Part shown: piece after piece, positions 1,011-58,815 of the stretch
How the letters are laid out: every line of letters starts with the position of its first letter
How positions within the stretch are numbered: the first letter of the stretch is position 1
Assembly: GCA_951406725.2 (NCBI GenBank)
Contig: OX597834.1
Location: 2,542,001-2,606,000 of the forward strand
DNA length: 64,000 nt
DNA from: Octopus vulgaris
Lineage: Eukaryota
Reading direction: 5' to 3'
Program-made: the position numbers and the translations under genes
Notes under the pieces: model-generated
The model's input: the letters and a program-made list of their open reading frames with translations, nothing else
Told to the model about the DNA's origin: nothing
The model's database searches: none

Positions 1011-1844
1011 TTTTTTTTTTTACTCCTAAAAACAAAAGCATTTCAACCAGGACCTCTTATCTTAAAAGGACTATCCCACGTGTCCGTCTCGTTTTTTCAA
1101 TAGTGTGATTTTAGAGGAATTTAAGTGTTATTTCTAGCAGGAAGAATGATCAGATAGTGGCTCTGTCGATGGTCTACAGTTATAGCTTAACGTTGGGTCA
1201 ACCTGATTGAGTAGATTTATGAGCAAAGACATTCCATCCATGACTATCCCATCTTTTCCCTGTAGGTATTTACAGGTAACCCGGAGCCACGATGTCCTAT
1301 ATCCCCCTTTTTAAAGATAGTTCGGTGCTGGATTAGGGAGGGAGATTTGGCTGTTATTTCTAGCAGAAAGAGCATCCACGAAGGAGAACTCTCGGTGACC
1401 CTTTGTCGAAAAGTGAGTACGAGTAATGAGTGTGACCCCAGAGAATGGACCCAGCGTCTTGTAAGGGAGAGGTCACTGGCCCTTGGTGGTCACGGTAACA
1501 CTGGATCTATTCGGCTTCCTTGTTTAAATCCCGAGCTGGTTGTACCCATCCCTCTGCTGAGGGCGAGGAACCTCCCCATTGTGCTTTTTGTTAGCAGTTA
1601 TAGTTGTTGTTATTGTGGTTGTTGTTGTTGTTTTTTTTTTTTGTCTCTTAAATTATTTTTGTATAATACCTCCCCCTTCCTTCGTGATGTTTTTGTAATG
1701 TCCCCCAAAGTGTGCGGGGCCCTTTGGGAACCGAACTAATACAGAAATTATCGTTTAAAAATAATCAATAAAATTAATTAGATAATTAATAAACTAATTA
1801 ATATTATTAGTGTCATCATCACCGTCATCATCATTATCTTCAGG

Positions 1845-2290
1845 GTGGTGGCGAGCTGGCATTTCTTCCGGCTCTTTGCGTTCTGGGTTCAAATACCGCC
1901 GAGGTTGATTTTGTCGTTCATTCTCTCGGGATCGATAAATTAAGTACCAGTTATGAACTGGGGTCTATTTAATCGACTAACACCCCACCCTAAAAGTGCT
2001 GGCCTTGTGTCCAAATTTGAAACATCCTCTTCTTCCTCCTCCTTACCATCATCATGATTATCATCACCATCATCATCTTCATCATCAGGATAATGAGCTG
2101 ACAAAGTCATTAGTGCGTCGGACAAACCGTCTCGCGGTATTCGCTCCAGCCGTTCATGCGCTGGGTTCAAATGCCATCGAGGTCAAATTTTGACTTTTAT
2201 CCCTCTGGAATCAATTAAATAAAGTACCAGTTATGAACTGGAGTCGAATGGTCGAAGTAGTCTCGTCTGTGGCCTTGGGCTAAACCCAGA
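1845..2290 (+). mobile_element. Two degenerate copies of the GGCGGCGAGCTGGCAG-headed tRNA-derived SINE family (called family B here)
   Basis: GTTCAAAT B-box and the shared GATAAATTAAGTACCAGTT..CTGGGGTCGA core, matching the copies at 30617 and 34224. Confidence 0.7.
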
Positions 2291-2369
2291 AAGAATTATT
2301 GTTTTTGGTTTTGGTTCAAATATCTTTTTGAGTAACTCAACGGTTTTCACAACAGAATTAGCTCAAACA

Positions 2370-3331
<962 letters not shown>

Positions 3332-3661
3332 AGGACGTCATAATAAATGCTCTAATTAGCAGGGTACTTAATTAGTTATGGGTGTTTGCTCAAACCTATA
3401 TTCACATTAGAGTGCTCACACAAACATGCATACAGTCACTACATGTAACATATATATATATATATATCAAAGTAAACGACAAAGATATCCAGAGTGTCGT
3501 GCAGTGGGACTGAACCTAGAACAATGTGATTAGAAAGCAAGCTTCTTACCACACAAACACGTCTCCACTTATATATATATTGTGTGTGTGTATCGTCTGC
3601 AACATAAACCCTGTCACACATTGCACTGGCCTACACAAAGTGAATCAACAAGTTTGAAAAT

Positions 3662-3704
<43 letters not shown>

Positions 3705-4103
3705 TACACGCACACACACACTTCTAAATTGAGCACAAGTCTATCTTGGCTAACATTCTCAGACACAATTGATGACTGTTTGTTACAGCGACTGCATTGT
3801 TGTTGTTGTTTAACCACAGGCCATTGCAGATCCAACGCCCTAATCATCAAAGACGTTCCTGCCCTGGCTATAATATTTAGTCGGACTCAATGTTTAAGGG
3901 ACTACCTTAACCAGTAGGTACTTCCTTTGTTTTAGACAATGAGGTGTGATTTGAGGGATATCTGGCTGTCATTTCTAGCAAGTATAATAACCTTGTAGAG
4001 GTTCTTTGTTGGCTCTATTTACACACACACACACATACACACACACACATACACACACACACACATACACACACACACTTAACAAATAGTTTACGGGACC
4101 CAA

Positions 4104-11320: not shown

Positions 11321-12475
11321 CTGCTCGCACGGACTTTGATGTATAAACAAACATAAGCACGCGTGTATTTAATTTTATACATTCATATAGCCATATACTT
11401 ATTGAAAGAGTTAAGTGAACGCACGCGCTGTATATATATATATATATATATATATACACAAGCAACAGAATCCGCAGTTCTTTTATATACATCTGTATAC
11501 AACTAACATCGTATAATTTTATCAAGTGATAATCGCACCAATCTATCTATCTGGCTACACACACACACACACACACACATACACACATATACACACACAC
11601 AGATTCAGGCATAAAAAGGGGAGAAAGCACGTGTCCTTACCCTTATACACACACACGCGCGCGCGCGCGCATTCACTCGCTTGCGCGCACTGACGTTGAT
11701 TTCAAGAGCTACGAGTAAGATAGAAAGAGAGGAAGAAGAGAGAGAGAGAGAGAGAGAGAGGAAGGATTGAGTAATAAAGAGAGTGGGTAGGAGGGAAGAG
11801 GGTTGGTTAGAGAGGAGTAGGCAGAGTATAAGAAAGAGTGTGAGGGAGGGAGAAGCAGTGAGAGAGGTGGAGTGAGAGCGAGAGGAGGAGGGAATATATA
11901 AAATAATTTAAATAGGTGGGAGGGAGGGAGGGACGTTTTTTACGGTGGGAGGAGAGGAAAGACGTGAGGAGTTGAGATAAAAATAAGATAGAGAGGGAGA
12001 GAGTAGGAGTGTGAGGCGGAGGTGTCGAACGAGAGGGAGTAGAGAGAAATAGAGATAGAGAGAGAGAGAGAGAGAAAGGGGTTGAAGTGCGTTTAGTGGT
12101 GGGGGCGTCGGTGAAAGGTAAGAGAAGCTCTGAAGCGGTAGAAAGGTTTTCTGTTTTGTTTGTTTGTGTGTGTGATTGTAGAGTGTGAAGCGAAACTGTT
12201 GAAGAAATCGTTGCATCCAGCACAGACGTCATTTTTAACTTGTGTTCACTTCCCAGCCAACATCGACACCAGCACCAACACCAACACCAACACCACATCG
12301 CATCAATTTTCGCGTCAGTTTGCCTCAAATTCCACAGGCTGACACGAACAAAATCAGCAGCAACAACAATAATAATAACAGCAACAGCAACAACTCCGAC
12401 CCACTCACCCCCTCCACCGCCAGGAAATATATAAATAAATAGAAACCACGAGCATTTCAGAAAGTGTGAGTAACT

Positions 12476-15400
12476 ATGGCAACGAACCTGAAACTTATGA
12501 AGGAGATTAACGAGCAGTTTCTGGTGTGCAAGATCTGCTTCGAGGCGTACAAGAACCCCAAGACGTTGACGTGTCTGCACACCTTTTGCAGCAACTGCTT
12601 ACAGAAACATGTCGACTCCGAGCAGGAGAGAACCTCTCGTTACACGCTCTACTCACGCCACGTTTATTGTCCAATATGCCGTAAGAAGACGGAGATACCG
12701 ACCGGAGGAATCCGGAGGTTACCGGATAACTTTCTGGTTTCCAACCTCACAGACGTTCTCAATCGGTTGAAGACTACAAAAGTGCAGCCCTGTGAGATTT
12801 GTCACACCGTGCGTAGCAGAAGCAATGAGGCGTGTTCGAAGTGCTTGGAATGTTCCAAACTGATGTGTAAGTCATGCGTGAAGCTTCATATGACCACGAA
12901 AGTAACGCAGAACCATAGTTTGTTTGATTTAGAAGGGGAGAAGGACATTGAATGTAAAGCTCATTCCGGGGAGATTGTGCGCTTCTATTGCGAACCTTGT
13001 GATGAATGTATTTGTGTGGTTTGCACATTCCAAGAACACCGTGACCACGAAATATGCTCGTTCAACGAGGGTTCAGCCAAATATAAATCGACCATCGAAA
13101 ACTTACTTAGTCATGGTAAAGACCGCTTGATTGATTTACGAATGAAATTGGGGATGATCAATAAGTGTGAAGGGGCCTTAAAGGATACCAGGGAACGCAT
13201 ACGAGACTTAGCCATCAGTTATATATCGCAAGTTCGCCAAACAGAGAAACAACTTCTGCAGAAAGTAGACGCCATGTTTGGAGATGAGATTCTTGATTTT
13301 CTCGAAAATAAATCCTGGCTTCAGGAAAACTTCGATAATTTACAGAATACTTGCAGCCTGGCTGAGATCATCGTCAAAGATAAAGGAATTGAAATTCTTC
13401 TTCTCAAAAAAGAACTCCAAAAGAAACTGGATGTCTTACTGCAACCGGATTTACCGGAAGTTCCACAACATTTGGCAACTAATATAAAGTTTGTACCTGG
13501 CTTCGTTAAGTTGGGCCACATCAGTGTTCCGGGCCGAGAAGAAGAAGATATGAACATCACCAGCGAAAAAGAAGCGAATTGTTCAGCGTTTAATCGGTCG
13601 ATGAGGTCTGAGATGAAACATATCGATATGCAGACCGATTGTGTGACATCGATGACAAGTTCCACCACAATGTCGACCGATGTTAACCGGGGAACTGCAG
13701 CCTCGCAGACGGCGAAAATAGAAACGGTGAATCGGTTGGCTGGCACCGATACCAACCACACAAGAGATAAATCGACGGAAGTCTATTGGATTGATCCAAA
13801 GTCACGTGGAACAATGACTGACCCACCACAGAGTCGGTCAAGGAGGAGTCAGACGTATTTGAATGACGATGCAAATATTACATCGATCTGCGAGACTTTG
13901 AAGAAGAATGTCACCACTGAATCAAAATCCATGGAAACGGAAGTGAGTATATCGTCTCTCGATGACGTCAGTACTGAAGATCTGCTGCTGCTGCAACGAG
14001 CCAAAAAATCTGGTTTGGAAATACAAAGTCTTTTATCTCCTTCACGAGGTCCAGCAGACAAACAGCCGGCCAGAACTGAAGAAAAAGGTATTGGAGAGGG
14101 TTCAGTTCTCACAAGCTGTGCGTCGATCAATACGGACAAGGTATTGATTTGTGACCGTAGGGTTAGTTCGCATCTTTCGCATGACTCCGGGTCTTGCAGT
14201 CCTGTCGTCGACAGAAAATCTCGCAGACTCAGCGCCGATATCCTTGCTTTGCAGCAGAAGTTTTCTGAACCTCACGTGCCTCGCTATCAAGATAGTGGCA
14301 AATCTTCCCCTCCATCTCCCAGCACGCCCCCAACCCCGACACGGTCATCTGGGCGTGGAAGTCCAGAGAGCACCCACTCTCGCAACGGTCAGAAAGAGAC
14401 GAGAAACATGGAAACTGATACTTCATCTTTACTCTCGTCACAGATTACCACCCAGGGAACATCTACGGATGCAGTGAAAACGGCCAGTGCCTCGAGCGAG
14501 GTCAAACCGACCACTAATTCGGTGGGGATCAGTGTCAGACCGAACTATAAAGACACTGGAACCGGTGACCAAATACTCACCTTAGAGGAGAAAGTATTTG
14601 TTGACGGTGAGACGTCTCCAATAAATGATTTGCCTGGAATTCTATTCGAAGACATTGAAGGATCCACAAATCGTTGCTTGTCGGCCACATCGGCATCGAA
14701 ACGGTCATCCAGCTGTTTTAGCGACGTTTGCACCGAAACAGAATCGCTAAAGATGAGGGATTCGCAGACTCTGACGTCAGTGTTAAAGACGGTCGATAAC
14801 TGGACACTGACGGACCGCACAGAATTCATCAACACCGCCACATCACCCATCTTAATACCGATGTGTGAAGTCGGAGTTTCAACGCTGAATCCGGTGCTCG
14901 TCAGTCAAGGAATGTCGACGGAGGCGGTGGAGCATGCCGACTGCCAAACTGAAACCAGTATATTCACACAGGACAGTGAGACGTTGACTGACAGAGTGAT
15001 CTCTACTGATGCACAGACCAACATCCACATCCACAGTGAGGACAGTCAAACGTGGATCGATTGCAGCACGCAATCGGAGACGGGAACCATGACGGAGACA
15101 GATGCAGGGACCAGCACCATTGAAGATTTTTTACTTTTAGCCGAAGGGGAACCGAGCGGAGATATAGCTAACATATCGGAGGTTATTGATTCCGACCAAG
15201 GGGCCAGCGAGGACGATATTTTCTTCGAACTTACAGAAGACGATGACGATCGAATGATGCACCAGTGTGTTCGAGGCTGGAATAATACGATGACTTTGCT
15301 GGAATCAATGGAGAACCACAACACGTCCCTTTGTAACAAGTGCTGTCTCCAGAAACCCGTTGAAGTGGCGCATAGGGCCACGATGTCGTCGCCCACCCTG

Positions 15401-17986
15401 ACTCACGATCAAGGGACTATGGTTCTATCCTTCAACACGGCACTAACAGAGTTCACTGACCGCAATGTCCAAACCATTCAGACCGCCGTGGCGGACAAGT
15501 CGATCGAAGCAGCTTTCAGCGACCCTCCGGGAAACTCGAACCTGGTCGCTGCCGAATGCAACGACGTTGCAACTTCGACCGAGTCGCTCGCCTACATGGG
15601 TCTGATGAGTGAGGTCGACATCAACGACCTCTATCTCTTGCCCGACTCGGCGTTCGATTTGCACTCGGATACAGATACGGCCAACTCCGAGTACGATTCG
15701 GACACACAGATCGAGATGGTGGACAGCGAGACTTCTATGGAGAATAGTCAGAGTGTTGAGGCTGGCACTCAAACTCCGATGATCACTGAGTGTGAAGGGC
15801 AATCACTGGGTCAGGAACCGGACCCACAGACGTTGTTGCAGATGATAAACGATGATGATTCGAAACATCTAGTGAGTATAGGGGTAAATACCATGCGTAA
15901 GGTAACCTATGAAAAGGAGACTAGCACACAGTCACGATATCTCTTTTCCAAAGGAACCATGACTTTCTATTTGAATAAATCAGATAAATCAACCGGTTCC
16001 AACAGGTCTTCGATCGCTTCCAGGAACAGCTTACTGATCGATCGTGTGGACAAGGACACAATGACATGCAGTGGTGGTACAAGTGAGAAGGGAGTTTCCA
16101 CTGACTCATCACAGCTCAATGAACAGGTAGCGGCTTGTATCAACAAGTTGAAAAATGTTCGCGATAAACTACAGAGCCCTACTTCGAAACAGGCCCCTGA
16201 GATTGGGGAACTGTCGCCGAAATCGTTGGCCAGAAAAAACAAGCCCGAGTTGAAAGACTTACTGGGGTCTACCAGCACCACCGAGTCAAGCAGCGTTGAC
16301 TCGGTTGGAACTGTTTCTGCGACGACATCAGGTTCCGAACCCTGTTCTCTGACGACCCCAACAACAACAACAAGACCAAAAAGTTCTTTATTTTCGTCTC
16401 CGTTGTTAGCGTTTTCTTCAACACCAACTTCGGTGACGTCATCAGGACATGGCGACAATAAACATTCGAGCTGTCCCGCAGCAGCAACGACGGCGTCAGC
16501 AACGGCGATAACAATGAGTTGCAGTGTCGGCTGTTCAACGACTTTATTAACAACGATGGCTTCGTCAAACAACACAATGTCCACGTCACTGTCGTCTGCT
16601 TCGCCATTGAGCGATAATCAACGAATCAGCGAGAGAACCACAACTCGAAAAGCGCAGCCAATCACCACATTAAAATGTAGATACAAAGACGTCAATGCCG
16701 CTGCCAATGGCCTCGATAAAAGCCAGACTCTTCCGCGTCAGTTTAGTGCACCAACTAATGATCTGCAGTTACAACAACAACAACAGCAACTACAACAACA
16801 ACAACTGCAACAACAACAAGCTGGTTTATTAAATTCTTCTCCAAGTCGTCTGCCTTTGTTGCGGTACAACTCGGCACCCGGAAAAATTGTCACAGTTCCC
16901 AAACACGCCCCCCCTAAAGATCTTAGTGTCTCCCCACAAACCTCGCCAAAGTCCACAAGTAAAATACCAACGACCAGGAAACTTAACGAATCCCAGAAAG
17001 ACACTATAAAAGATTACTACACAATAACTAATGCAAAACCAACAAACCAGCTACCATCGCTACCGGCAATCACTGAGACTCGAACCCCGCCCGGCTGTTC
17101 AGACCCTTCTGACTTGACTACCATGTCAAACTGTTATTCGAACTCCATGTCAGATTCATGCCCAGCACAAACCTTCTCCACTTTGTCTCCTACCTGTACA
17201 TCTCTGACCGCTGACGACACTTCTGTCGAGCCAGCCTCTCCAGCTACCGGCAAAAGGAACACGTTAGCGACACCAGATAGTCCATGTATAAGCGGCAGTA
17301 GTAGAGAATGTTCCCCTCAGACCCGGAAAACTGGCTTCATGCAGCGACTTCTCACTCGAAAACCAAAGAAAGACACTTCAAATGATTCCAGCAAAAGGCA
17401 ACAACGTCACCACCAGCGACCAGATTCTTCACCTGCCTCCGTATCGACATCGTCCAGTTCTTCAGCTCTGTCTATCAATGATTCCAAAAGTGCTACACCT
17501 TCTCCGAAGTCGCCACCAAAAAGCGGTCTGAGAGTGGGCAAGAAAGCCATGTCACCATCGCCAACATCGTCCTCAAAGACGTCAAGCACCAACGCCAATA
17601 CCAACAGACCTACAAGTGCCATTAATATGACGAACTCCGCGTCTCCGGCTTCCTCTGCGCAAGCAGCGGACGATAAAACGGCCAAATCGAAGAAAAGCCG
17701 TCCGTTTGTCTACATGCGACAGAGAATATTTTCGATCCAACACGATAACGAAGACAGTCCGGAGAGGAAGGCACGAGCGTTGGAACGTCAGAAGAAAACT
17801 GAGAAGAAGACGGAAAAGAAAAAAACAGGTTCGAGTGCAACTGACGGTAGCAACAGTAGCAGCAGTCCTGGTCTGAGAAGAGATCGATGTGAAGGAAACG
17901 GTAAAAATGGTCAGGGTCTGATCAAAACGAACGGAGAAGCGAATTTGTTGACGGTGGAAGGGCAATCATTTGCTGATGTGTGCTGA
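12476..17986 (+). CDS. TRIM/RBCC E3 ubiquitin ligase (RING, B-box1, B-box2, coiled coil; TRIM56/TRIM2-3/TRIM45-like N-terminus) with a ~1480-aa Ser/Thr-rich disordered tail; single coding exon
   Basis: Uninterrupted 1836-aa ORF with no microsatellite origin. RING: CKIC..CLHTFCSNC..CPIC followed by the LPDNF motif. B-box1: CEIC..CSKCLECSKLMCKSCVKLH. B-box2: CKAH..FYCEPCDECICVVC..EHRDH. Helical coiled-coil region to ~aa 330. Start context actATGG with an in-frame TGA 9 nt upstream. No filamin, NHL or SPRY domain recognisable. Confidence 0.95.
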   Translation: MATNLKLMKEINEQFLVCKICFEAYKNPKTLTCLHTFCSNCLQKHVDSEQERTSRYTLYSRHVYCPICRKKTEIPTGGIRRLPDNFLVSNLTDVLNRLKTTKVQPCEICHTVRSRSNEACSKCLECSKLMCKSCVKLHMTTKVTQNHSLFDLEGEKDIECKAHSGEIVRFYCEPCDECICVVCTFQEHRDHEICSFNEGSAKYKSTIENLLSHGKDRLIDLRMKLGMINKCEGALKDTRERIRDLAISYISQVRQTEKQLLQKVDAMFGDEILDFLENKSWLQENFDNLQNTCSLAEIIVKDKGIEILLLKKELQKKLDVLLQPDLPEVPQHLATNIKFVPGFVKLGHISVPGREEEDMNITSEKEANCSAFNRSMRSEMKHIDMQTDCVTSMTSSTTMSTDVNRGTAASQTAKIETVNRLAGTDTNHTRDKSTEVYWIDPKSRGTMTDPPQSRSRRSQTYLNDDANITSICETLKKNVTTESKSMETEVSISSLDDVSTEDLLLLQRAKKSGLEIQSLLSPSRGPADKQPARTEEKGIGEGSVLTSCASINTDKVLICDRRVSSHLSHDSGSCSPVVDRKSRRLSADILALQQKFSEPHVPRYQDSGKSSPPSPSTPPTPTRSSGRGSPESTHSRNGQKETRNMETDTSSLLSSQITTQGTSTDAVKTASASSEVKPTTNSVGISVRPNYKDTGTGDQILTLEEKVFVDGETSPINDLPGILFEDIEGSTNRCLSATSASKRSSSCFSDVCTETESLKMRDSQTLTSVLKTVDNWTLTDRTEFINTATSPILIPMCEVGVSTLNPVLVSQGMSTEAVEHADCQTETSIFTQDSETLTDRVISTDAQTNIHIHSEDSQTWIDCSTQSETGTMTETDAGTSTIEDFLLLAEGEPSGDIANISEVIDSDQGASEDDIFFELTEDDDDRMMHQCVRGWNNTMTLLESMENHNTSLCNKCCLQKPVEVAHRATMSSPTLTHDQGTMVLSFNTALTEFTDRNVQTIQTAVADKSIEAAFSDPPGNSNLVAAECNDVATSTESLAYMGLMSEVDINDLYLLPDSAFDLHSDTDTANSEYDSDTQIEMVDSETSMENSQSVEAGTQTPMITECEGQSLGQEPDPQTLLQMINDDDSKHLVSIGVNTMRKVTYEKETSTQSRYLFSKGTMTFYLNKSDKSTGSNRSSIASRNSLLIDRVDKDTMTCSGGTSEKGVSTDSSQLNEQVAACINKLKNVRDKLQSPTSKQAPEIGELSPKSLARKNKPELKDLLGSTSTTESSSVDSVGTVSATTSGSEPCSLTTPTTTTRPKSSLFSSPLLAFSSTPTSVTSSGHGDNKHSSCPAAATTASATAITMSCSVGCSTTLLTTMASSNNTMSTSLSSASPLSDNQRISERTTTRKAQPITTLKCRYKDVNAAANGLDKSQTLPRQFSAPTNDLQLQQQQQQLQQQQLQQQQAGLLNSSPSRLPLLRYNSAPGKIVTVPKHAPPKDLSVSPQTSPKSTSKIPTTRKLNESQKDTIKDYYTITNAKPTNQLPSLPAITETRTPPGCSDPSDLTTMSNCYSNSMSDSCPAQTFSTLSPTCTSLTADDTSVEPASPATGKRNTLATPDSPCISGSSRECSPQTRKTGFMQRLLTRKPKKDTSNDSSKRQQRHHQRPDSSPASVSTSSSSSALSINDSKSATPSPKSPPKSGLRVGKKAMSPSPTSSSKTSSTNANTNRPTSAINMTNSASPASSAQAADDKTAKSKKSRPFVYMRQRIFSIQHDNEDSPERKARALERQKKTEKKTEKKKTGSSATDGSNSSSSPGLRRDRCEGNGKNGQGLIKTNGEANLLTVEGQSFADVC

Positions 17987-40015: not shown

Positions 40016-40860
<845 letters not shown>

Positions 40861-42275: not shown

Positions 42276-42277
<2 letters not shown>

Positions 42278-42396
42278 GGAATAAACACATAAATGTGAAA
42301 CAAGGTGGAAAAAAGAGTACTCAAATACCAGTGGTAGAGTAATATGCTTTATTTTAAGCAGCAGATTTTGTTGAATTTTCTGCTGCTTAAAATAAA

Positions 42397-42402
<6 letters not shown>
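42276..42402. mobile_element. Centre-deleted copy of the 44456 hairpin element, inside (TA)n
   Basis: Shares CACATAAATGTGAAACAAGGTGGAAAAAAGAGTAC with 44456; ~24-bp stem 42342-42365/42379-42402. Confidence 0.7.
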
Positions 42403-44455: not shown

Positions 44456-44656
44456 CCAGAGTAAGCACATAAATGTGAAACAAGGTGGAAAAAAGAGTAC
44501 CAGAGGTAGATTAATATTGTTTATTAAAAAGCAGCAAAAATATCACAAAAACTGTTACTCAGAGTTTCACATTCCTGTTCGTCAGACAGTTTTGTTTAGA
44601 ATGTCCCACGAACGGGAACATGAAACTCTGTAATATTTTTGCTGCTTTTTAATAAA
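44456..44656 (-). mobile_element. Penelope pLTR-like asymmetric hairpin element
   Basis: Arms 44520-44589 and 44604-44656 are inverted; the longer left arm ends in (TA)n; contains a hammerhead motif. Confidence 0.65.
44548..44593 (-). ncRNA. Minimal type I hammerhead ribozyme motif
   Basis: Minus strand reads AAAACTGT-CTGACGA-ACA-GGAA-TGT-GAAACTC-T-GAGTA-ACAGTTTT: 8-bp stem I, intact core, GUA site. Confidence 0.8.
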
Positions 44657-44736: not shown

Positions 44737-45912
44737 CGTTTAAATATTTGTTGTGCAAGATTTTTTATGTGAAGTCGTGTGTTGAAACAGATATTGTTAT
44801 ATTTCGGAATGGTCATATTGCCAGTTTAGCCAATAAAAACACACGCACTATATATTTGGTGTTATTTTGCTTCAGTGATATTTATTTTTTACATTAATCT
44901 TAATCTTATTTCGGCCAAAGTTCTTTCGTCACACTCCTGTGACCGCATCAGTGGTCCTTTGTTTTCTTCTCACTTACTTGTGTCTCTCCTTACTAACCGT
45001 CAGCCATTTTGTATTTCTATTGTATGTCTTCATTTGCGCATGCTTATATCTCTATGTGCGTCTATGTTTATTTAGTGTGTGTGGGGGGGGATGCCTGTAA
45101 TATTTGTATCTTCTGGTTATATACATTCTTGTAATTTGTATTTTGTTTTTGTTGTTGTTGCTTTTGTTCTAATTTTGTTCATGTGTTTACATCCACCCAT
45201 TATTATCATTACATATGCTTGTATGTATGTATAACAACAATATTAGTAATAATAATAATAAATCTAATCGAAAAAAAAAAAAAAAAAAAAGAAAAGAATA
45301 TACATATACATATATATATATACATACATATACATATACATATATACATACATATACATATACATATACATATATATGCACATATACACACATATATACA
45401 CATATAGATATTCATTTCTATTTCTTTAATTTTTTTCGATTAGATTTATTATTATTATTACTAATATTGTTGTTATACATACATACAAGCATATGTAATG
45501 ATAATAATGGGTGGATGTAAACACATGAATAAAATTAGAACAAAAGCAACAACAACAAAAACAAAAACAAAATACAAATTACAAGAATGTATATAACCAG
45601 AAGATACAAATATTACAGGCATCCCCCCCCCCACACTAAATAAACATAGACGCACATAGAGATATAAGCATGCGCAAATGAAGACATACAATAGAAATAC
45701 AAAATGGCTGACGGTTAGTAAGGAGAGACACAAGTAAGTGAGAAGAAAACAAAGGACCACTGATGCGGTCACAGGAGTGTGACGAAAGAACTTTGGCCGA
45801 AATAAGATTAAGATTAATGTAAAAAATAAATATCACTGAAGCAAAATAACACCAAATATATAGTGCGTGTGTTTTTATTGGCTAAACTGGCAATATGACC
45901 ATTCCGAAATAT

Positions 45913-45920
<8 letters not shown>
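44737..45920. mobile_element. ~1.2-kb fold-back element with ~490-bp near-identical arms, flanked by (TA)n; hammerhead-like motif in each arm
   Basis: 44791-45277 is the reverse complement of 45431-45920 (ORFs 44875+ and 45636- translate identically); microsatellite spacer; 54-nt unpaired left extension. Confidence 0.9.
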
Positions 45921-47349: not shown

Positions 47350-50048
47350 CAGAGGTTCCCAACCTTTTTCAGCCCAGGGACCATTTTACACTTGAAAAAG
47401 TTTCTAGGGACCATTTCTACTTAATGCTGTTCTATTTTCACACTAAAATATTCGATGAAAATACAATATAGTCTATTTACACTTTGAAATTTATTTTAGC
47501 AAAAAAAGAGATAAAATTTAAAATTTAATAAACAAAGATAAACATGAGATATCAAAATCATTTCTCATAAAGTCTTTCCTTTTGAGTCCATTCTGTTAGT
47601 GACTAGCTTGATATTGGTGTTTCTGACTCAAGATATCATAATCAATTTTAACGAACTCATTTAGTCTGAGTCTGATAGTTCCTCTGCTGTTGACATCTAA
47701 TTTATTTCTTTTTCTACTTAAAATATCTACAACAGCTGAAAATACAGATTCCATCATCCATGTGGCAGGGAAAGAAATGATGCTTTCTTCTACATGTCGA
47801 AAAATATCTGGGTGTGATCCCTTTATCGATATGTAGGCAAAGACCCCTTCCTTCTCAACTCTTCTCCTCAGTTTCATATTCTCTTTCAAATCCAACAACA
47901 TTTCAGCCACCTGAAAATTTCCATCTCCTGGCTTATAATTTTCTAGGTCTACAAACCAGAATGGATAATCCATCTTTAATAAATCATTGTATTTTCTCTC
48001 AAAGTCTACATGAAGACCCTCAAGATGGGCAATGCATGCAGCCATGCATTCTGATGTAGGAACGGTGGTGTTGGAATTTTGAAATGATGCCAATTTTTTT
48101 TTCAAACTGTTTCTTCCAAAATGTTAACTTCCCCATATACCCTTTTATCTTCCGAGAACAGGTGATCAAATCTGATTTTCTACCTTGCAGCTCTAACAGA
48201 TTCACTGTTTTAAAAATATCACTCAAGTAGAATATTTTTGATTTAAACTCAGAAAGTCTTTCCAAAATTTTCGTAGCTGTATCAGCTTGCTTCTTGGAGT
48301 TGTAAATGAGTTATCTGACTCTTGAACATGAGAAAGTTGATTAATGGTTCCCACCAATTCACTAGTCTTTCAAGCCTCAGGCCTTTTGACAACCATTTTA
48401 CTTTTGTGTGAAGCAATAGGGTTTTTAAATTTTCATCTTCACAGAATTGCATTAAAAATCTATTATTCACTGAGTTTGATTTGACAAAGTTAATTGCATG
48501 TATGGCAGTGCTGAGTGCTTCTTCCATCTGTCCTCCAATATTCTTAGCAACGAAATGCTGTCTGTGGATAATGCAATGTATATAAAAAAATGTGAGGAGC
48601 AACTGATTTCATTTTAGAAACAAAGCCTTTCACTTTTCCAGTCATGGCTGCAGCTCCATCTGATGCAATGTTAATCAGATTTGTCAAAGGAATATTATTA
48701 TCATTAAAATACTGCATTACTTCATTGAATATTTCTTCTCCATTAGTTGTTTCAGACAAACTTTTAATGAATAACATTTCTTCCCTTATATCATCTTCAT
48801 GGATGAATTTGACACAGACCAGAAGCATAGCTTACTTATGAATTGTGCTATCATCAACCTGGATAGAAAAATTTGTTTTTTGGAGAATTTCCACAACCTT
48901 CTCCTCAACAAAATTAGACGGAATTGTACTCAGAGTAGATGCAGCATCTTTTCCCAGAACCTCATTTGCACAAGCGATCATGGCAGGCTTGACACGTTTC
49001 TCACCATAAATCTGAGTTGCTGTAACCTTGGCAATAATTTCAGAGACGAAATAACTTGGTTTGAATGTCTTTGCTTTTTCAATATTTATCTTCTTTACAA
49101 AGTCGGGTAGTTTGATTGGCTGTATTTTCTTTTTATTCTCAAAATATTCCCTACTTTTACCAAAAGATGATGGACACCTTAATTTCTAGTGCTGTTCCAG
49201 CTTAACTTCTTCGTGGAATGATTTGTCATGATGGCATCACATTCAAGACACATAAGTTTTGAGTCTACAGATACAAAACCAAACATGATAAAATCTTCTT
49301 TGTAGTTCCTCAGTTTTGCCTTCTTAGCAGTTGGTTGAGACATAATTTCAACTGATCTTAAAAATAAAATAAACATAATAAATACTTTATTTCTATAAAT
49401 TAAAAGTATCAAATTTATTATTAAACAATATTGTGTAGTGATCTATCAAAAATATCAAATTTATTATGAAACTGTTGTGATTGTAAAATTTAAATTATGT
49501 ATTTGTTGATTGTGCCGACCAAAGCCTTGTGAGTGGATTTGGTAGATGGAAACTGAAAGAAGCCCGTCGTATATATGTATATATATATATGTGTGCGTTT
49601 GTTTGTGTGTCTGTGTTTGTCCCCCTAGCATTGCTTGACAACCGATGCTGGTGTGTTTATGTCCCCGTCACTTAGCGGTTCGGCAAAAGAGACCAATAGA
49701 ATAAGTACTGGGCTTACAAAGAATAAGTCCCGGGGTCGAGTTGCTCGATTTAAGGCGGTGCTCCAGCATGGCCGCAGTCAAATGGCTGAAACAAGTAAAA
49801 AGGGAAATATATTACTGATTATATATTGTACCTTATTGATTCTTATGAAATAATTATTGAATTTTGTTTTCTCATTGTTATTACTCTGTCTTCATGTAAA
49901 TTATTAACTAACAGTGTCTTTATTATCGAACAATATTTTGTAGATCTGAAATGGTTCCAATTTTTTTATGGCTATGAATTCTGTGGGGACCACTAGAAAT
50001 GCTCAGGGGGACCACCGGAGGGCCCCAGGGACCTGTTGGGAATCACTG
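47350..50048 (-). mobile_element. Full-length decayed hAT transposon, Buster/Charlie (ZBED5/SCAND3-like) group
   Basis: TIRs CAGAGGTTCCCAAC / GTTGGGAATCACTG (12/14); perfect 8-bp TSD TTGTAGAG with central TA at 47342-47349 and 50049-50056; family A SINE fragment inserted at 49513-49800. Confidence 0.95.
47596..49343 (-). pseudogene. Frameshifted hAT transposase
   Basis: BED-finger-like MSQPTAKKAKLRNYKEDFIMFGF..CLEC; FSIQVDDST, IASDGAAAMTG, HCIIHRQH, KWLSKG and FPATWMMESVFS motifs spread over several reading frames. Confidence 0.9.
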
Positions 50049-50740: not shown

Positions 50741-50804
<64 letters not shown>

Positions 50805-50806
<2 letters not shown>

Positions 50807-51025
50807 TCCGTAAATATAAGAGAGCCAACTTTGAATATGTTAACTCTAGTGCTAGAAATAGCTCCAGAGCTATTTCTAGCACTAGAGTTAACATATTCAA
50901 AGTTGGCTCTCTTATATTTACAGATAAATATGTATTTGTCTCCCTGGTTTATTGTGCTAGATCGCTTGGTGTTAAAATAAGGGTATTATTGAATTAATAT
51001 CTAAAATTTTTTCACCCTCATTATT
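50805..51025. repeat. Perfect 55-bp-arm hairpin with unpaired 3' extension, between (TA)n tracts
   Basis: 50810-50864 is the exact reverse complement of 50867-50921, with a 2-nt loop (CA). Confidence 0.92.
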
Positions 51026-52825: not shown

Positions 52826-52884
<59 letters not shown>

Positions 52885-53358
52885 AATAGTTATCGCCATA
52901 TTAATATGGCATTCTTATAAAAATAAGAATAAAGCTGTCCGCTTATTAACTCCATGAGGCCATCGCCTTAAGTTAGCTATTTGATACACAAACTGTATCC
53001 ATATAACCTTCGAACAAGGGAGGTCAGTCGCTCCACACTACTTGATCGACAGCTACAGACGCGTTTCGGGGTATTGCCCCTTTTCAATGCAGCGTTGAAA
53101 AGGGGCAATACCCCAAAACGCGTCTGTAGCTGTCGATCAAGTAGTGTGGAGCGACTGACCTCCCTTGTTCGAAGGTTATATGGATACAGTTTGTGTATCA
53201 AATAGCTAACTTAAGGCGATGGCCTCATGGAGCTAATAAGCGGACAGCTTTATTCTTATTTTTATAAGAATGCCATATTAATATGGCGATAACTATTATT
53301 TTCCAGGAACGCTGCCGTGATCTCTTTTAGAGAGACTTAGTAATTTTAATATTTCTAT
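52885..53358. mobile_element. 413-bp near-perfect palindrome (52885-53297) plus ~60-nt extension, in (TA)n; Penelope pLTR-like
   Basis: 206-bp arms around A53091 with 3 non-matching positions found by eye; ORFs 52977- and 52981+ translate identically. Confidence 0.92.
53052..53093 (-). ncRNA. Minimal type I hammerhead motif with compensatory U3-A8 core pair
   Basis: Minus strand reads GCTGCA-TTGAAAA-GGGG-CAATA-CCCC-GAAAC-GC-GTC-TGTAGC. Confidence 0.75.
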
Positions 53359-53380
53359 TATATATATATATATATATATA

Positions 53381-54618
53381 CGAAGGGCGTTCAATAAGTA
53401 ATGCCCCTGACCCACTTCCCATAGGAGTAGAGCAACGAAACTTGGCACAGTTATTAGTCTTTTTCTACATAGGAACCACCCAGAGTTATGCATTTCTCCC
53501 ATCGTTTGATGCGGCTCTGGAGACCGTTTTTGTAGAAGACCCCAGCTTGGTCCTCCAACCACGACATGACTTCAGAAATCAAGGCTGCATCATCTGGGAA
53601 ACGCTTTCCTTTCAAAAACAACTTCATGCCTGGGAAGAGGTGAAAATCGCCTGTGCTTCTGATCTGGCGACACGCGAGTTGTGGACCGGAGCGTTGTCCT
53701 GCAGGAGGAGGATGCCTTTGCTGATCTTGCCCCGCCTCTTGATTTTGATAGCTACTCTTAATTTCCTCAAAAGTGAAGCATAATAAGCTCCTGTAATTGT
53801 GGTACCCTTTGCCAGGAAATCTGTCATCACTACTCCGTCCTGGTCTCAGAAGACTGTGAGCATGACCCTGCCAGCGGAGGGCTGCACCCTTGCCTTCTTT
53901 GGAGGAGGTGAGTCACGGTGCTTCCACTGCATTGACTGGGCTTTGGTCTCTGGATCATTGAGATGGACCCAGGTTTAATCCTGTGTAATCAGTCTTTTGA
54001 GAAAGTTTGACTCATCTTCTTGGCACATCTCCAAATTCACCCTCGAGCACTCGACGCGTTCTTGCTTCTGGAAAGGCGTGAGCAACCTGGGAATCCATCT
54101 GGCAGACACCTTTTGCATATGCAAATGGTCATGAATGATAGTTTCCACAGACCCGGTACTAATCTTGACCTCATGGGCTATTTGGCGAATAGTTATGCGT
54201 CGATCTTCCAAAATGGCAGCCTCAACTTGACGGACAGATGCCTCATCAATGGCAGAAGATGGGCGACTAGATCTGGGAGCAGTTTCCACAAAGTTCCGAC
54301 CATGTTTGGATTCCCGATGCCAGCGTTTTACAAGGTCATATGATGGGGCATCATCACCATAAGTTACTTTCATTTCATCAAAATTCTACCGTGGTGTGCG
54401 TCCTTTCAAATACAAAAACCGGATCACTGCTCGACACTCAACAGGCTCCATTTCACACTTGACTAAGTTCAAATACATGTAAATCAGAAACCACAATTAG
54501 TTCAGAGCTGTAATTTGCCACTTACTCTATAGAGATATAAATAATTGCACATGCAAAATTTCAGCTAGATCAAACAATTGCAAGTGGGTCAGGGGCATTA
54601 CTTATTGAACGTCCCTCG
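53381..54618 (-). mobile_element. Near full-length mariner transposon with disrupted transposase (54451 to 53454)
   Basis: ~37-bp TIRs CGA(A/G)GG(G/A)CGTTCAATAAGTAATGCCCCTGACCCACTT with TA flanks. Motifs VSARWIPRLL, ITQD* (premature stop), LLQDNAPVH and GSYVEKD; the PHPPYSPDLAPS segment is deleted with a frameshift. Confidence 0.95.
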
Positions 54619-55868: not shown

Positions 55869-56027
55869 GTATGTGTATATGTGTATATATATGTGTGTGT
55901 GAGTGTATATGTGGATATATATATGTGTATATATACATATATATATACACAGACATATGAGAGGTAATGATGTCAGTAGGACAGAAAGGTGTCAGGTAAT
56001 GCTGAGTAAGTGCTATGGATAGACCAT

Positions 56028-56141
56028 ATGAATAGATCTTTCAGGTGTTTCCAGGATATTTTGTATATCCTTTTATCAGAGCGTCTCCGATGAAGGGATA
56101 TAAAAAATATCCTGGAAACAGCTGTAAGACCTTCTATTTAT
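56028..56141. ncRNA. Head-to-head pair of minimal hammerhead-like motifs (duplicated at 58059-58172)
   Basis: Plus strand 56083-56130 reads GTCT-CCGATGA-AGGGATAT-AAAAA-ATATCCTG-GAAAC-AGCT-GTA-AGAC; a degenerate mirror copy lies on the minus strand. Confidence 0.65.
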
Positions 56142-56750
56142 CAGCCGAGTCTATCGTTAATATCGTCACGCCTCCTTCTTTCAAACGGGAAGGAAGACCT
56201 ATTTTCATCATCCTTGTGGCTATGGCGAAAGAATGTATTTGGTGGACGCGTCTGAAAGGATTAGAGACAAACACTTTCCTCTCTCGTCAGTCTCTCATCA
56301 ATGTCTTCAAGTATCACTTGAAAAGGAAAGTGAGAGTAGAGAGGCAAGTTTTGTCTAGCGAATGTATAAAAAAAAGATGCGTGAATGTAGCAAGGATGGC
56401 ATGTATGAATGACGAAGCCACCTTGAGCATGATCCTATGAACCCGGAAAAAATATAAAACAGAGAGTTACTTACTTGCAAACAAATGTGTTAATAGGCGA
56501 CATTATTGACCGAGGTTACTGTGGTCTTTTCCGTAGGCTTTTCTTTCCACGGATAAACCTTATCTGCTTCCCCCTTTACACTTTACATCATGACATTTCT
56601 GTGATACACGATCTCTATTGATCGTTTCCTTTTTCTTTTTTCTTTCCCTTTTACGATCCCTTTTGATCGGAAACCTACCTCACCTCCCCCCCCCCCCTCT
56701 CTCTGTAATCTGTCCCGTCTATGTTCAGCCCTGTGTGGCTAATAAAGAAA
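56138..56750 (+). mobile_element. 5'-truncated L1/Tx1-like LINE: ORF2 C-terminus and 3' UTR (duplicated at 58169-58797)
   Basis: IFIILVAMAKECIWWTRLKG..KRKVRVERQVL resembles Tx1 ORF2 ends; UTR ends AATAAAGAAA at a (TATC)/(TC)n tract. Confidence 0.65.
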
Positions 56751-56767
56751 CATATCTATTCTATCTA

Positions 56768-57899: not shown

Positions 57900-58815
57900 G
57901 TATGTGTATATGTGTATATATATGTGTGTGTGAGTGTATATGTGGATATATATATGTGTATATATACATATATATATACACAGACATATGAGAGGTAATG
58001 ATGTCAGTAAGACCGAAAGGTGTCAGGTAATGCTGAGTAAGTGCTATGGATAGACCATATGAATAGATCTTTCAGGTGTTTCCAGGATATTTTGTATATC
58101 CTTTTATCAGAGCGTCTCCGATGAAGGGATATAAAAAATATCCTGGAAACAGCTGTAAGACCTTCTATTTATCAGCCGAGTCTATCGTTAATATCGTCAC
58201 GCCTCCTTCTTTCAAACGGGAAGGAAGACCTATTTTCATCATCCTTGTGGCTATGGCGAAAGAATGTATTTGGTGGACGCGTCTGAAAGGATTAGAGACA
58301 AACACTTTCCTCTCTCGTCAGTCTCTCATCAATGTCTTCAAGTATCACTTGAAAAGGAAAGTGAGAGTAGAGAGGCAAGTTTTGTCTAGCGAATGTTTAA
58401 AAAAAAAGATGCGTGAATGTAGCAAGGATGGCATGTATGAATGACGAAGCCACCTTGAGCATGATCCTATGAACCCGGAAAAAATATAAAACAGAGAGTT
58501 ACTTACTTGCAAACAAATGTGTTAATAGGCGACATTATTGACCGAGGTTACTGTGGTCTTTTCCGTAGGCTTTTCTTTCCACGGATAAACCTTATCTGCT
58601 TCCCCCTTTACACTTTACATCATGACATTTCTGTGATACACGATCTCTATTGATCGTTTCCTTTTTCTTTTTTTCTTTCCCTTTTACGATCCCTTTTGAT
58701 CGGAAACCTACCTCACCTCCCCCCCCCCAAAAGAAGGAAAGCTCTACTTTGTAATCTGTCCCGTCTATGTTCAGCCCTGTGTGGCTAATAAAGAAACATA
58801 TCTATTCTATCTATC

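What the first reader, a model, noticed from the sequence alone, without database searches (positions are those of the whole stretch)
52885..53358. 413-bp near-perfect palindrome centred on a hammerhead with a compensatory U3-A8 core
Seen: 206-bp arms with a 1-nt centre. The minus strand of the left arm reads GCTGCA-TTGAAAA-GGGG(CAATA)CCCC-GAAAC-GC-GTC-TGTAGC. Known: hammerhead C3-G8 is a Watson-Crick pair, so UUGAAAA is a double change that preserves pairing. One of only three arm differences hits the catalytic G12 of the plus-strand copy (A53115), leaving one intact motif. Inference: a recent insertion that could extrude a cruciform or yield ~200 bp of dsRNA (ADAR or Dicer substrate).
Basis: partly seen in the sequence, partly recalled or inferred. 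Interest (0 to 1): 0.75.

Follow-up and report, generated by a model that had tools for sequence, protein, structure and literature searches.

The report
Mirror-image Penelope-type retroelement stub in octopus
The 413-base palindrome is real, but it is most likely an ordinary landing scar of a Penelope-type jumping gene: two short copies of its ribozyme-bearing end set head to head in a TA repeat, a known arrangement with a known ribozyme variant, and common in this octopus genome.

Summary
Observation confirmed: arms 52885-53090/53092-53297 with three mismatches, and a type I hammerhead with a U3-A8 core on the minus strand (none in 40 shuffles). It is one copy of a highly repeated octopus family (1,630-3,958 contigs per DNA run). 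No other letter reached 3% in the core, so U3, A8 and G12 are the family's letters; G12A is near-private.

Corrections: the true junction is at 53095, not 53091. The plus copy starts at U3 and lacks the 5' strand of helix I. Only two differences are mutations, one per arm. A 61-nt tail lies on one side only, and (TA)n on both.

This is the described anatomy of Penelope-like insertions: inverted 5'-truncated terminal repeat, one-sided tail, TA target. U3-A8 is already reported in Penelope hammerheads. Other copies show head-to-head joints at varying points (11 of 15 listed). Three more hammerhead-like fold-backs lie in the window, and this scan noted the same kind in other genomes.

No link to an RT/GIY-YIG gene could be shown. 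In a read-through RNA the long hairpin would prevent the ribozyme fold. Open lead: such stubs may supply much of the octopus's unusually high near-perfect dsRNA load.

The parts
52828..52884 (.). Left (TA)n tract, the target; it lies at the end of a longer TA/CA-rich run
52885..53095 (-). Left arm: 5'-truncated copy of the element end, read outward; starts 8 nt upstream of U3, has no tail; one private difference at 52949
   Evidence: native upstream letters and absence of an alternative at mirror place 53233
53052..53093 (-). Type I hammerhead: helix I 6 bp, core U3(53087)-A8(53082), helix II 4 bp with CAAUA loop, G12(53067), palindromic ACGCGU helix III, predicted cut after C17 (53058)
   Evidence: dimer fold
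53088..53095 (.). Junction zone: native quasi-palindromic 5' strand of helix I of the minus copy; 1-nt overlap with the plus copy at 53095
   Evidence: tables 5c and 7
53095..53297 (+). Right arm: second copy, truncated exactly at U3, read outward
   Evidence: 203 nt, 99.0% to the left arm
53095..53130 (+). Disabled hammerhead remnant: no 5' strand of helix I, and A at position 12 (53115)
53298..53358 (+). One-sided 61-nt tail (ends uncertain by about 2 nt); summed contig depth is high here and drops at 53359
   Evidence: table 2
53359..53380 (.). Right (TA)n tract, followed directly by an unrelated mariner-type element

Best explanation
A stub insertion made by Penelope-like (PLE) retrotransposition machinery into a (TA)n tract of an Octopus genome. 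Shown: two head-to-head copies of the hammerhead-bearing end of a highly repeated family, both facing outward; a tail on one side; TA on both sides; other copies with the same layout and different junctions. Inferred: the RT/GIY-YIG protein cut both strands of the TA tract and primed a cDNA from each end, at two start sites on the RNA 61 nt apart, which leaves the tail on one arm only. Both cDNAs ran through the uncut hammerhead and ended at its 5' side (8 nt before U3, and at U3), where they were joined with 1 nt of overlap. A simple fold-back of the left cDNA cannot by itself give the tail, so a second cDNA from the right end is needed. In the source element the hammerhead would work as a dimer through its palindromic helix III; at this locus it is probably silent. 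About 0.8 for the PLE-machinery origin, about 0.55 for the two-cDNA detail. Whether the RNA came from an autonomous PLE or a non-coding derivative is open.
For: Anatomy matches text seen in PMC8557442 (inverted 5'-truncated copy next to the 5' end, a tail often at one end only, (TA)n bias) and PMC3846280 (head-to-head most frequent, palindromes at the inverted junction, terminal repeats of 181-218 bp). PMC11167929: a purified PLE protein cuts and extends both strands of AT-rich DNA, starts at two adjacent RNA sites that bound the tail, is predicted to be a dimer, and uses uncut RNA; 3958, 2140 and 1630 contigs laid in three DNA runs; depth is high at the tail and drops after it; 11 of 15 listed joints are head-to-head, with one arm ending 8 nt before to 22 nt after U3 and the other starting 42-234 nt after U3. 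Both arms share letters that about 88-96% of the depth reads otherwise (53133, 53136), so they come from one template lineage. Two-copy fold gives the canonical dimer with a 6-bp helix III, -31.9 kcal/mol against -12.9 per monomer. Three more hammerhead-like fold-backs lie in the window.
Against: No RT or GIY-YIG frame was recognised among the window's 98 frames of 120 aa or more (read by eye; no family scan was run), and no whole genome was held, so linkage to a PLE gene is not shown. The tail (61 nt) is longer than the 30-40 bp given in the papers. The ribozyme has the 6-bp/4-bp helix plan of retrozyme-type hammerheads, not the long helix II and extra unpaired base of minimal PLE hammerheads. 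No target-site duplication can be read in (TA)n. The junction hairpin is not the lowest-energy DNA fold, and the best self-duplex uses another register, so energetics do not support a specific joining route. None of the 32 listed pieces (of 7,856) bridges this junction, so this exact locus was not confirmed in independent reads.
Confidence: 0.8

Rival explanations
1. Same machinery, but the template was a non-coding retrozyme-type RNA (tandem units, circular RNA) moved in trans, not the end of an autonomous PLE. This is a variant of the best explanation, not exclusive of it.
For: Helix plan 6/4/2 bp with a palindromic helix III is the canonical metazoan type I form (PMC4209133) found in non-LTR retrozymes (PMC7229834); a 2026 preprint derives retrozymes from PLE terminal repeats. 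One listed joint (53094/53361, run X1) can be read as tail-to-head.
Against: No tandem unit at this locus; only 1 of 15 listed joints fits tail-to-head; loose ends show that some copies continue past the tail in non-TA sequence (15-23 contigs per row, mixed, agreement 0.53-0.68).
Confidence: 0.3
2. The short palindrome arose after insertion, by central deletion of a longer inverted pair or by fold-back repair, and the arms were kept alike by conversion.
For: Long palindromes are unstable (general knowledge); junctions vary among copies; the longer fold-back at 44738-45920 has a degenerate centre.
Against: Each arm keeps one private difference; one arm end falls near the 5' half of the hammerhead in 11 of 13 inversion joints, against about 23% expected from uniform ends (p about 5e-6 under an assumption of equal detectability); two other families in the window also join just upstream of the core.
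Confidence: 0.12
3. Assembly fold-back artefact.
For: Near-perfect arms; no listed contig bridges the junction.
Against: The flanks are not mirrored; a 61-nt family tail sits on one arm only; each arm has the family letter where the other deviates; native upstream letters lie on one arm only; the same layout appears at other loci in independent runs.
Confidence: 0.04
4. A MITE or foldback DNA transposon that happens to carry a hammerhead-like motif.
For: Palindromic body in TA; a mariner-type element lies next to it.
Against: Ends are not symmetrical, junctions and arm lengths vary between copies, and copies share the tail end rather than both ends.
Confidence: 0.03

Closest known systems
EN+ Penelope-like element insertions with an inverted pLTR and a one-sided tail (Arkhipova et al. 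2013, PMC3846280; Craig et al. 2021, PMC8557442; passages seen)
   Same: Head-to-head inverted 5'-truncated copy, palindrome at the junction, repeat of about 200 bp, tail at one end, (TA)n target, hammerhead in the repeat.
   Different: No ORF at this locus (stub only); tail 61 nt rather than 30-40; clade and autonomous partner not identified.
U3-A8 hammerheads of Schistosoma mansoni Cercyon PLEs (Cervera and De la Pena 2014, PMC4209133; parts 1-2 of 4 read)
   Same: Same core covariation, about 1,300 hits there; the paper also notes pairs of motifs 100-700 bp apart on opposite strands.
   Different: Those are minimal motifs with a long helix II and an extra unpaired base; this one has a 4-bp helix II, a 6-bp helix I and a 2-bp helix III, and the family is fixed for U3-A8.
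Non-LTR retrozymes (Cervera and De la Pena 2020, PMC7229834, passages; Li et al. 2026 preprint 10.64898/2026.07.22.740005, part 1 of 5 and passages)
   Same: Canonical type I helix plan, non-coding, linked to PLEs.
   Different: Retrozymes are head-to-tail tandem units; this locus is head-to-head with a tail.
Poseidon PLE of Anolis (PAc) in vitro (Frangieh et al. 2024, PMC11167929; parts 1-2 of 4 read)
   Same: Both-strand priming in AT-rich DNA, two start sites that bound the tail, uncut RNA as template: these account for the layout seen here.
   Different: That work did not show formation of a head-to-head product; the link to this locus is inference.

Membership tests
Type I hammerhead ribozyme | Core 3-9, G12-A13-A14, A15.1-U16.1, H17, with 3-8 paired | tested here: met
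   Minus copy meets it as the U3-A8 variant; the plus copy does not (A at 12, no 5' strand of helix I).
Type I hammerhead ribozyme | Three helices; short palindromic helix III that allows a dimer | tested here: met
   6/4/2 bp; the two-copy fold gives the canonical dimer, -31.9 kcal/mol. Prediction only.
Type I hammerhead ribozyme | Match to an Rfam hammerhead model | tested here: not met
   No hammerhead family among 20 matches at E up to 10; the C3-G8 motif at 44585 was missed too, 0 of 35, so the models are a weak test for these short forms.
Type I hammerhead ribozyme | Distal helix I and loop 1-loop 2 contact | tested here: inconclusive
   Native upstream letters from one contig could pair 4 bp with 53141-53144 across a 10-nt bulge (read by eye); this locus keeps only 2 of those 4 letters.
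Type I hammerhead ribozyme | Self-cleavage after C17 | not testable with these tools
   Needs an in vitro assay; U3-A8 was reported active in other contexts (PMC3088659).
EN+ Penelope-like element insertion | Hammerhead within a terminal repeat of about 200 bp | tested here: met
EN+ Penelope-like element insertion | Inverted, 5'-truncated copy head to head, junction variable between copies | tested here: met
   This locus, and 11 of 15 listed joints.
EN+ Penelope-like element insertion | Tail of 30-40 bp at one end only | tested here: inconclusive
   One-sided tail present, but 61 nt long.
EN+ Penelope-like element insertion | AT-rich or (TA)n target | tested here: met
   (TA)n on both sides.
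EN+ Penelope-like element insertion | Linked ORF with PLE-type RT and GIY-YIG endonuclease | tested here: inconclusive
   None recognised in the window (by eye); no genome held; no hits in three contig collections.
EN+ Penelope-like element insertion | Target-site duplication | tested here: inconclusive
   Cannot be read in (TA)n.
Minimal PLE hammerhead (min-HHR) | Long helix II (7-8 bp) and an unpaired base between 9 and 10.1 | tested here: not met
   Helix II is 4 bp with no extra base.
Non-LTR retrozyme | Head-to-tail tandem units, each with a hammerhead | tested here: not met
   No tandem here and no second copy in the window; 1 of 15 listed joints could be tail-to-head. Arrays elsewhere are not excluded.
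Non-LTR retrozyme | Circular RNA | not testable with these tools
   Only assembled contigs were available.
MITE / foldback DNA transposon | Symmetrical terminal inverted repeats and a fixed structure among copies | tested here: not met
   One-sided tail; variable junctions.

The most novel reading that the evidence does not exclude
Penelope-type fold-back stubs in TA tracts are a main, so far unnamed source of the octopus's exceptional near-perfect dsRNA and hyper-editing load; and their junctions gather at the 5' half of the hammerhead because the folded, uncut ribozyme (or the RNA 5' end just before it) is where reverse transcription stops and the two cDNAs join, a role other than cleavage. 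In this window three one-sided-tail fold-backs hold 1,122 of 1,251 non-simple 50-mers with a near-perfect inverted partner (the window was picked for its palindrome). PMC5625713 reports the octopus dsRNA excess without assigning a repeat family in the passages seen, and names Penelope as massively edited in lizard.
Probability: 0.3. Interest if true: 0.6.

Novelty: new member of a known kind. Interest (0 to 1): 0.3.

Why it matters
The locus itself is ordinary: a known insertion layout with a known core variant. Its value is as a clean, young example. The junction is mapped to one base and the tail is on one arm, which fits the two-start-site, both-strand priming shown in vitro and allows a test of how inverted Penelope ends form, a step the cited papers call unresolved. 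A very abundant family fixed for U3-A8 would be missed by C3-G8 descriptors and was missed by Rfam here, so cephalopod hammerhead counts may be low. If such stubs are transcribed, they would be ready-made ADAR substrates in the animal with the strongest hyper-editing signal in PMC5625713.

Tried and rejected
Rfam scans gave only generic hairpin (microRNA-type) matches below their gathering scores. Exact and degenerate hammerhead patterns found 0 matches in metagenome, viral and prokaryote contigs, so no annotated relative or linked ORF was obtained. No whole genome was held, so copy number and partner ORF could not be measured; summed depth is not a copy number. No RNA holder is on record: runs marked 'RNA?' are guesses. 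Run X12 (28 contigs) has no cover over 53040-53094; this says nothing about expression. A>G places numbered 7 in X12 against 4, 7 and 5 in the DNA runs: not a test of editing. X12 record 9 covers 53115 with 3 other letters of which only 2 are listed, so its letter at 53115 is unknown to me; the claim that G12 is the family letter rests on depth (1.4-2.7% of it lies on the A12 copy) and on no alternative being listed at 53067. Six-frame translation of the right arm plus tail shows no convincing ORF. A snap-back mini-hairpin at the junction is not favoured by DNA folding. For the joint count of 13 I left out 1 internal skip (53141/53276) and 1 joint with the tail end (53094/53361); 1 further row was not shown. 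Copies reaching further upstream than 53095 cannot appear in that table, and same-strand skips may be found more easily than strand changes. Literature searches: octopus + Penelope + hammerhead (4 listed, none describes this family in the listing or passages seen); hammerhead + C3-G8/U3-A8; hammerhead + C3U + G8A; Penelope + inverted + twin priming (2 listed, listing only); octopus + hyper-editing + repeats. Lunse et al. on dimeric PLE hammerheads was not available; I know it only from a review passage. No supplements were seen; those of PMC4209133, PMC8557442 and PMC5625713, and repeat libraries such as Repbase or Dfam, may already hold this family.

Full report
Host and setting. The window is from the genus Octopus: a RING/B-box frame at 12470-17986 is 98% identical over 358 aa to an Octopus bimaculoides protein. 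The finding lies about 35 kb from it, among microsatellites and dispersed repeats. No whole genome was held.

The observation. The arms 52885-53090 and 53092-53297 are 99% complementary, with mismatches at 53088/53094, 53067/53115 and 52949/53233. The minus strand 53093-53052 is a type I hammerhead with a 6-bp helix I, core U3-U4-G5-A6-A7-A8-A9, a 4-bp helix II, G12-A13-A14, a 2-bp helix III whose six letters are palindromic, and a GUC site. The same descriptor found 2 motifs in the window and 0 in 40 shuffles. Two copies fold into the canonical dimer with a 6-bp helix III, -31.9 kcal/mol against -12.9 per monomer, and the monomer's lowest fold is not the catalytic one. Rfam's hammerhead models did not match, and also missed the C3-G8 motif at 44585.

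The right arm runs on for 61 nt (53298-53358) with no partner on the left, and (TA)n flanks both ends. Both copies read outward, so the pair is head to head.

The family. Of 24 listed runs, 20 from 9 studies and four organism labels hold at least half of the sampled words. I laid 4 of them on 53040-53362 at 80% likeness. The three DNA-type runs gave 3958, 2140 and 1630 contigs. Summed depth reaches about a million, while single joint contigs mostly have depths of 24-136, so the family is very highly repeated; this is not a copy count. No other letter reached 3% between 53040 and 53132, so U3, A8 and G12 are the family's letters. Only 1.4-2.7% of the depth lies on the A12 copy. No alternative is listed at 53233, so the left arm carries the other private change (52949). 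Both arms share letters at 53133 and 53136 that about 88-96% of the depth reads otherwise, so they descend from one template lineage.

The junction. One contig of run X12 continues upstream of the plus copy in 14 native letters, and contigs of X2 and X3 show the next three of those letters after 53095 (tables 5c and 7). Hence 53088-53095 is native sequence of the minus copy, the plus copy begins at U3, and the overlap is 1 nt. The '1-nt centre' comes from the native strand being nearly self-complementary. True arm divergence is 2 of 203 (1.0%, 95% interval 0.1-3.6%).

Other copies. Of 15 listed joints (1 more not shown), 11 join a copy ending 8 nt before to 22 nt after U3 head to head with a copy starting 42-234 nt after U3; 2 are strand changes further downstream, 1 is an internal skip, and 1 involves the tail end. 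Under uniform ends, 11 of 13 has p about 5e-6, but equal detectability is assumed and copies reaching further upstream are invisible. No listed joint lies at the predicted cut site, and both arms here include sequence upstream of it, so the template was uncut or re-ligated. Depth is high over the tail and falls after 53358; some copies continue in non-TA sequence. None of the 32 listed pieces (of 7,856) bridges this junction, so the locus is not directly confirmed. The unmirrored flanks, the one-sided family tail and the reciprocal private changes argue against an artefact.

Neighbours in the window. Three other fold-backs have hammerhead-like motifs reading outward: 44456-44656 (C3-G8 core on the minus strand, decayed partner, tail on the left), 44738-45920 (motif with C at position 9 in both arms, 53-nt tail) and 56028-56141 with its duplicate 58059-58172 (long helix II, decayed). 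Two more, 50800-51025 and 42276-42400, show no convincing motif. The layout is commonplace here.

Comparison with what is known. PMC8557442 (passages) describes an inverted 5'-truncated copy next to the 5' end, a 30-40 bp tail often at one end, and a (TA)n bias. PMC3846280 (passages) reports head-to-head as the usual arrangement, with palindromes at the junction, and proposes self-priming. PMC11167929 (parts 1-2 of 4) shows that a purified PLE protein cuts and extends both strands of AT-rich DNA, starts at two RNA sites that bound the tail, and does not need ribozyme cleavage. PMC4209133 (parts 1-2 of 4) reports U3-A8 in about 1,300 Schistosoma PLE-type motifs and opposite-strand pairs; PMC3088659 (passages) reports natural U3-A8 and earlier proof of activity. 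The helix plan here is the canonical one of retrozymes (PMC7229834, passages), which a preprint derives from PLE ends (part 1 of 5 and passages). Passages of PMC6765202, PMC6962438, PMC2377424, PMC3884650, PMC7151607 and PMC9989829 added background only. I found no description of this octopus family, but saw no supplements or repeat libraries. Three earlier notes of this scan reached the same reading in other genomes; I saw them after stating my reading and did not check their loci.

Mechanism. Shown: layout, junction, family letters, variable joints. Inferred: both ends of the cut TA tract primed a cDNA, the left at the start site next to the arm and the right at the site 61 nt further out; both ran through the ribozyme and joined at its 5' side. 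The top strand carries the cDNA-type junction letters of the tail-less arm, so fold-back of that cDNA alone cannot supply the tail. DNA folding does not favour a junction hairpin, so the joining route is open. It works like a PLE insertion; membership lacks the linked RT/GIY-YIG frame.

Function at this locus. RNA spanning both arms folds into one long hairpin (-378.9 kcal/mol) in which helix II has probability 0.000, against 0.96-0.97 for single-arm RNA. The locus is therefore an unlikely active ribozyme and a good ADAR substrate if transcribed; transcription, editing and cruciform formation were not testable.

Why not lower. PMC5625713 (passages) found the octopus to have an exceptional share of near-perfect inverted sequence (4.4 per thousand 50-mers), left it out of the repeat-annotation analysis, and named Penelope as massively edited in lizard. 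Here 1,251 non-simple 50-mers (2.0% of the window) have such a partner under a similar, ungapped rule, and 1,122 of them lie in three one-sided-tail fold-backs. The window was selected for a palindrome, so this is a lead only. Verdict: real, ordinary in kind, a new member; interest 0.3.

Noticed in passing
window 44456-44656: Second head-to-head pair: intact C3-G8 hammerhead on the minus strand (core at 44585), decayed partner from about 44601, tail on the left, TA/CA repeats on both sides.
   Followed up: partly
window 42276-42400: Very short sister of the 44456 element (80% over 89 nt): about 20-bp inverted arms plus a long one-sided tail inside pure (TA)n; no hammerhead left.
   Followed up: partly
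window 44738-45920: 1.13-kb palindrome (97-99% arms) with a microsatellite centre, a 53-nt tail on the left and a hammerhead-like motif with C at position 9 in both arms, reading outward.
   Followed up: partly
window 56028-56141 and 58059-58172: Decayed head-to-head pair of minimal-type hammerheads (long helix II, palindromic helix III), centred just upstream of the cores; present twice within a local duplication, 55948-56752 / 57979-58798, 97%.
   Followed up: partly
window 50800-51025: 65-bp arms, 97% complementary, (TA)n on the left and about 90 nt of one-sided extension before the next microsatellite; no convincing hammerhead.
   Followed up: partly
window 53379-54618: Mariner-type element with 37-bp terminal inverted repeats (94.6%) and a broken transposase frame on the minus strand, in the same TA tract as the finding (the family name is recalled from the protein motifs, not from a scan).
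   Followed up: no
window 12470-17986: 1,838-aa single open frame, RING/B-box (TRIM-like) N-terminus with a long Ser/Thr-rich C-terminus; long relatives across molluscs and annelids.
   Followed up: partly
window 40076-40529: Two near-identical copies of a dispersed repeat in inverted orientation about 270 nt apart.
   Followed up: no
window 47596-48123: 175-aa minus-strand frame that looks like the end of a DNA-transposon-derived protein (impression only).
   Followed up: no
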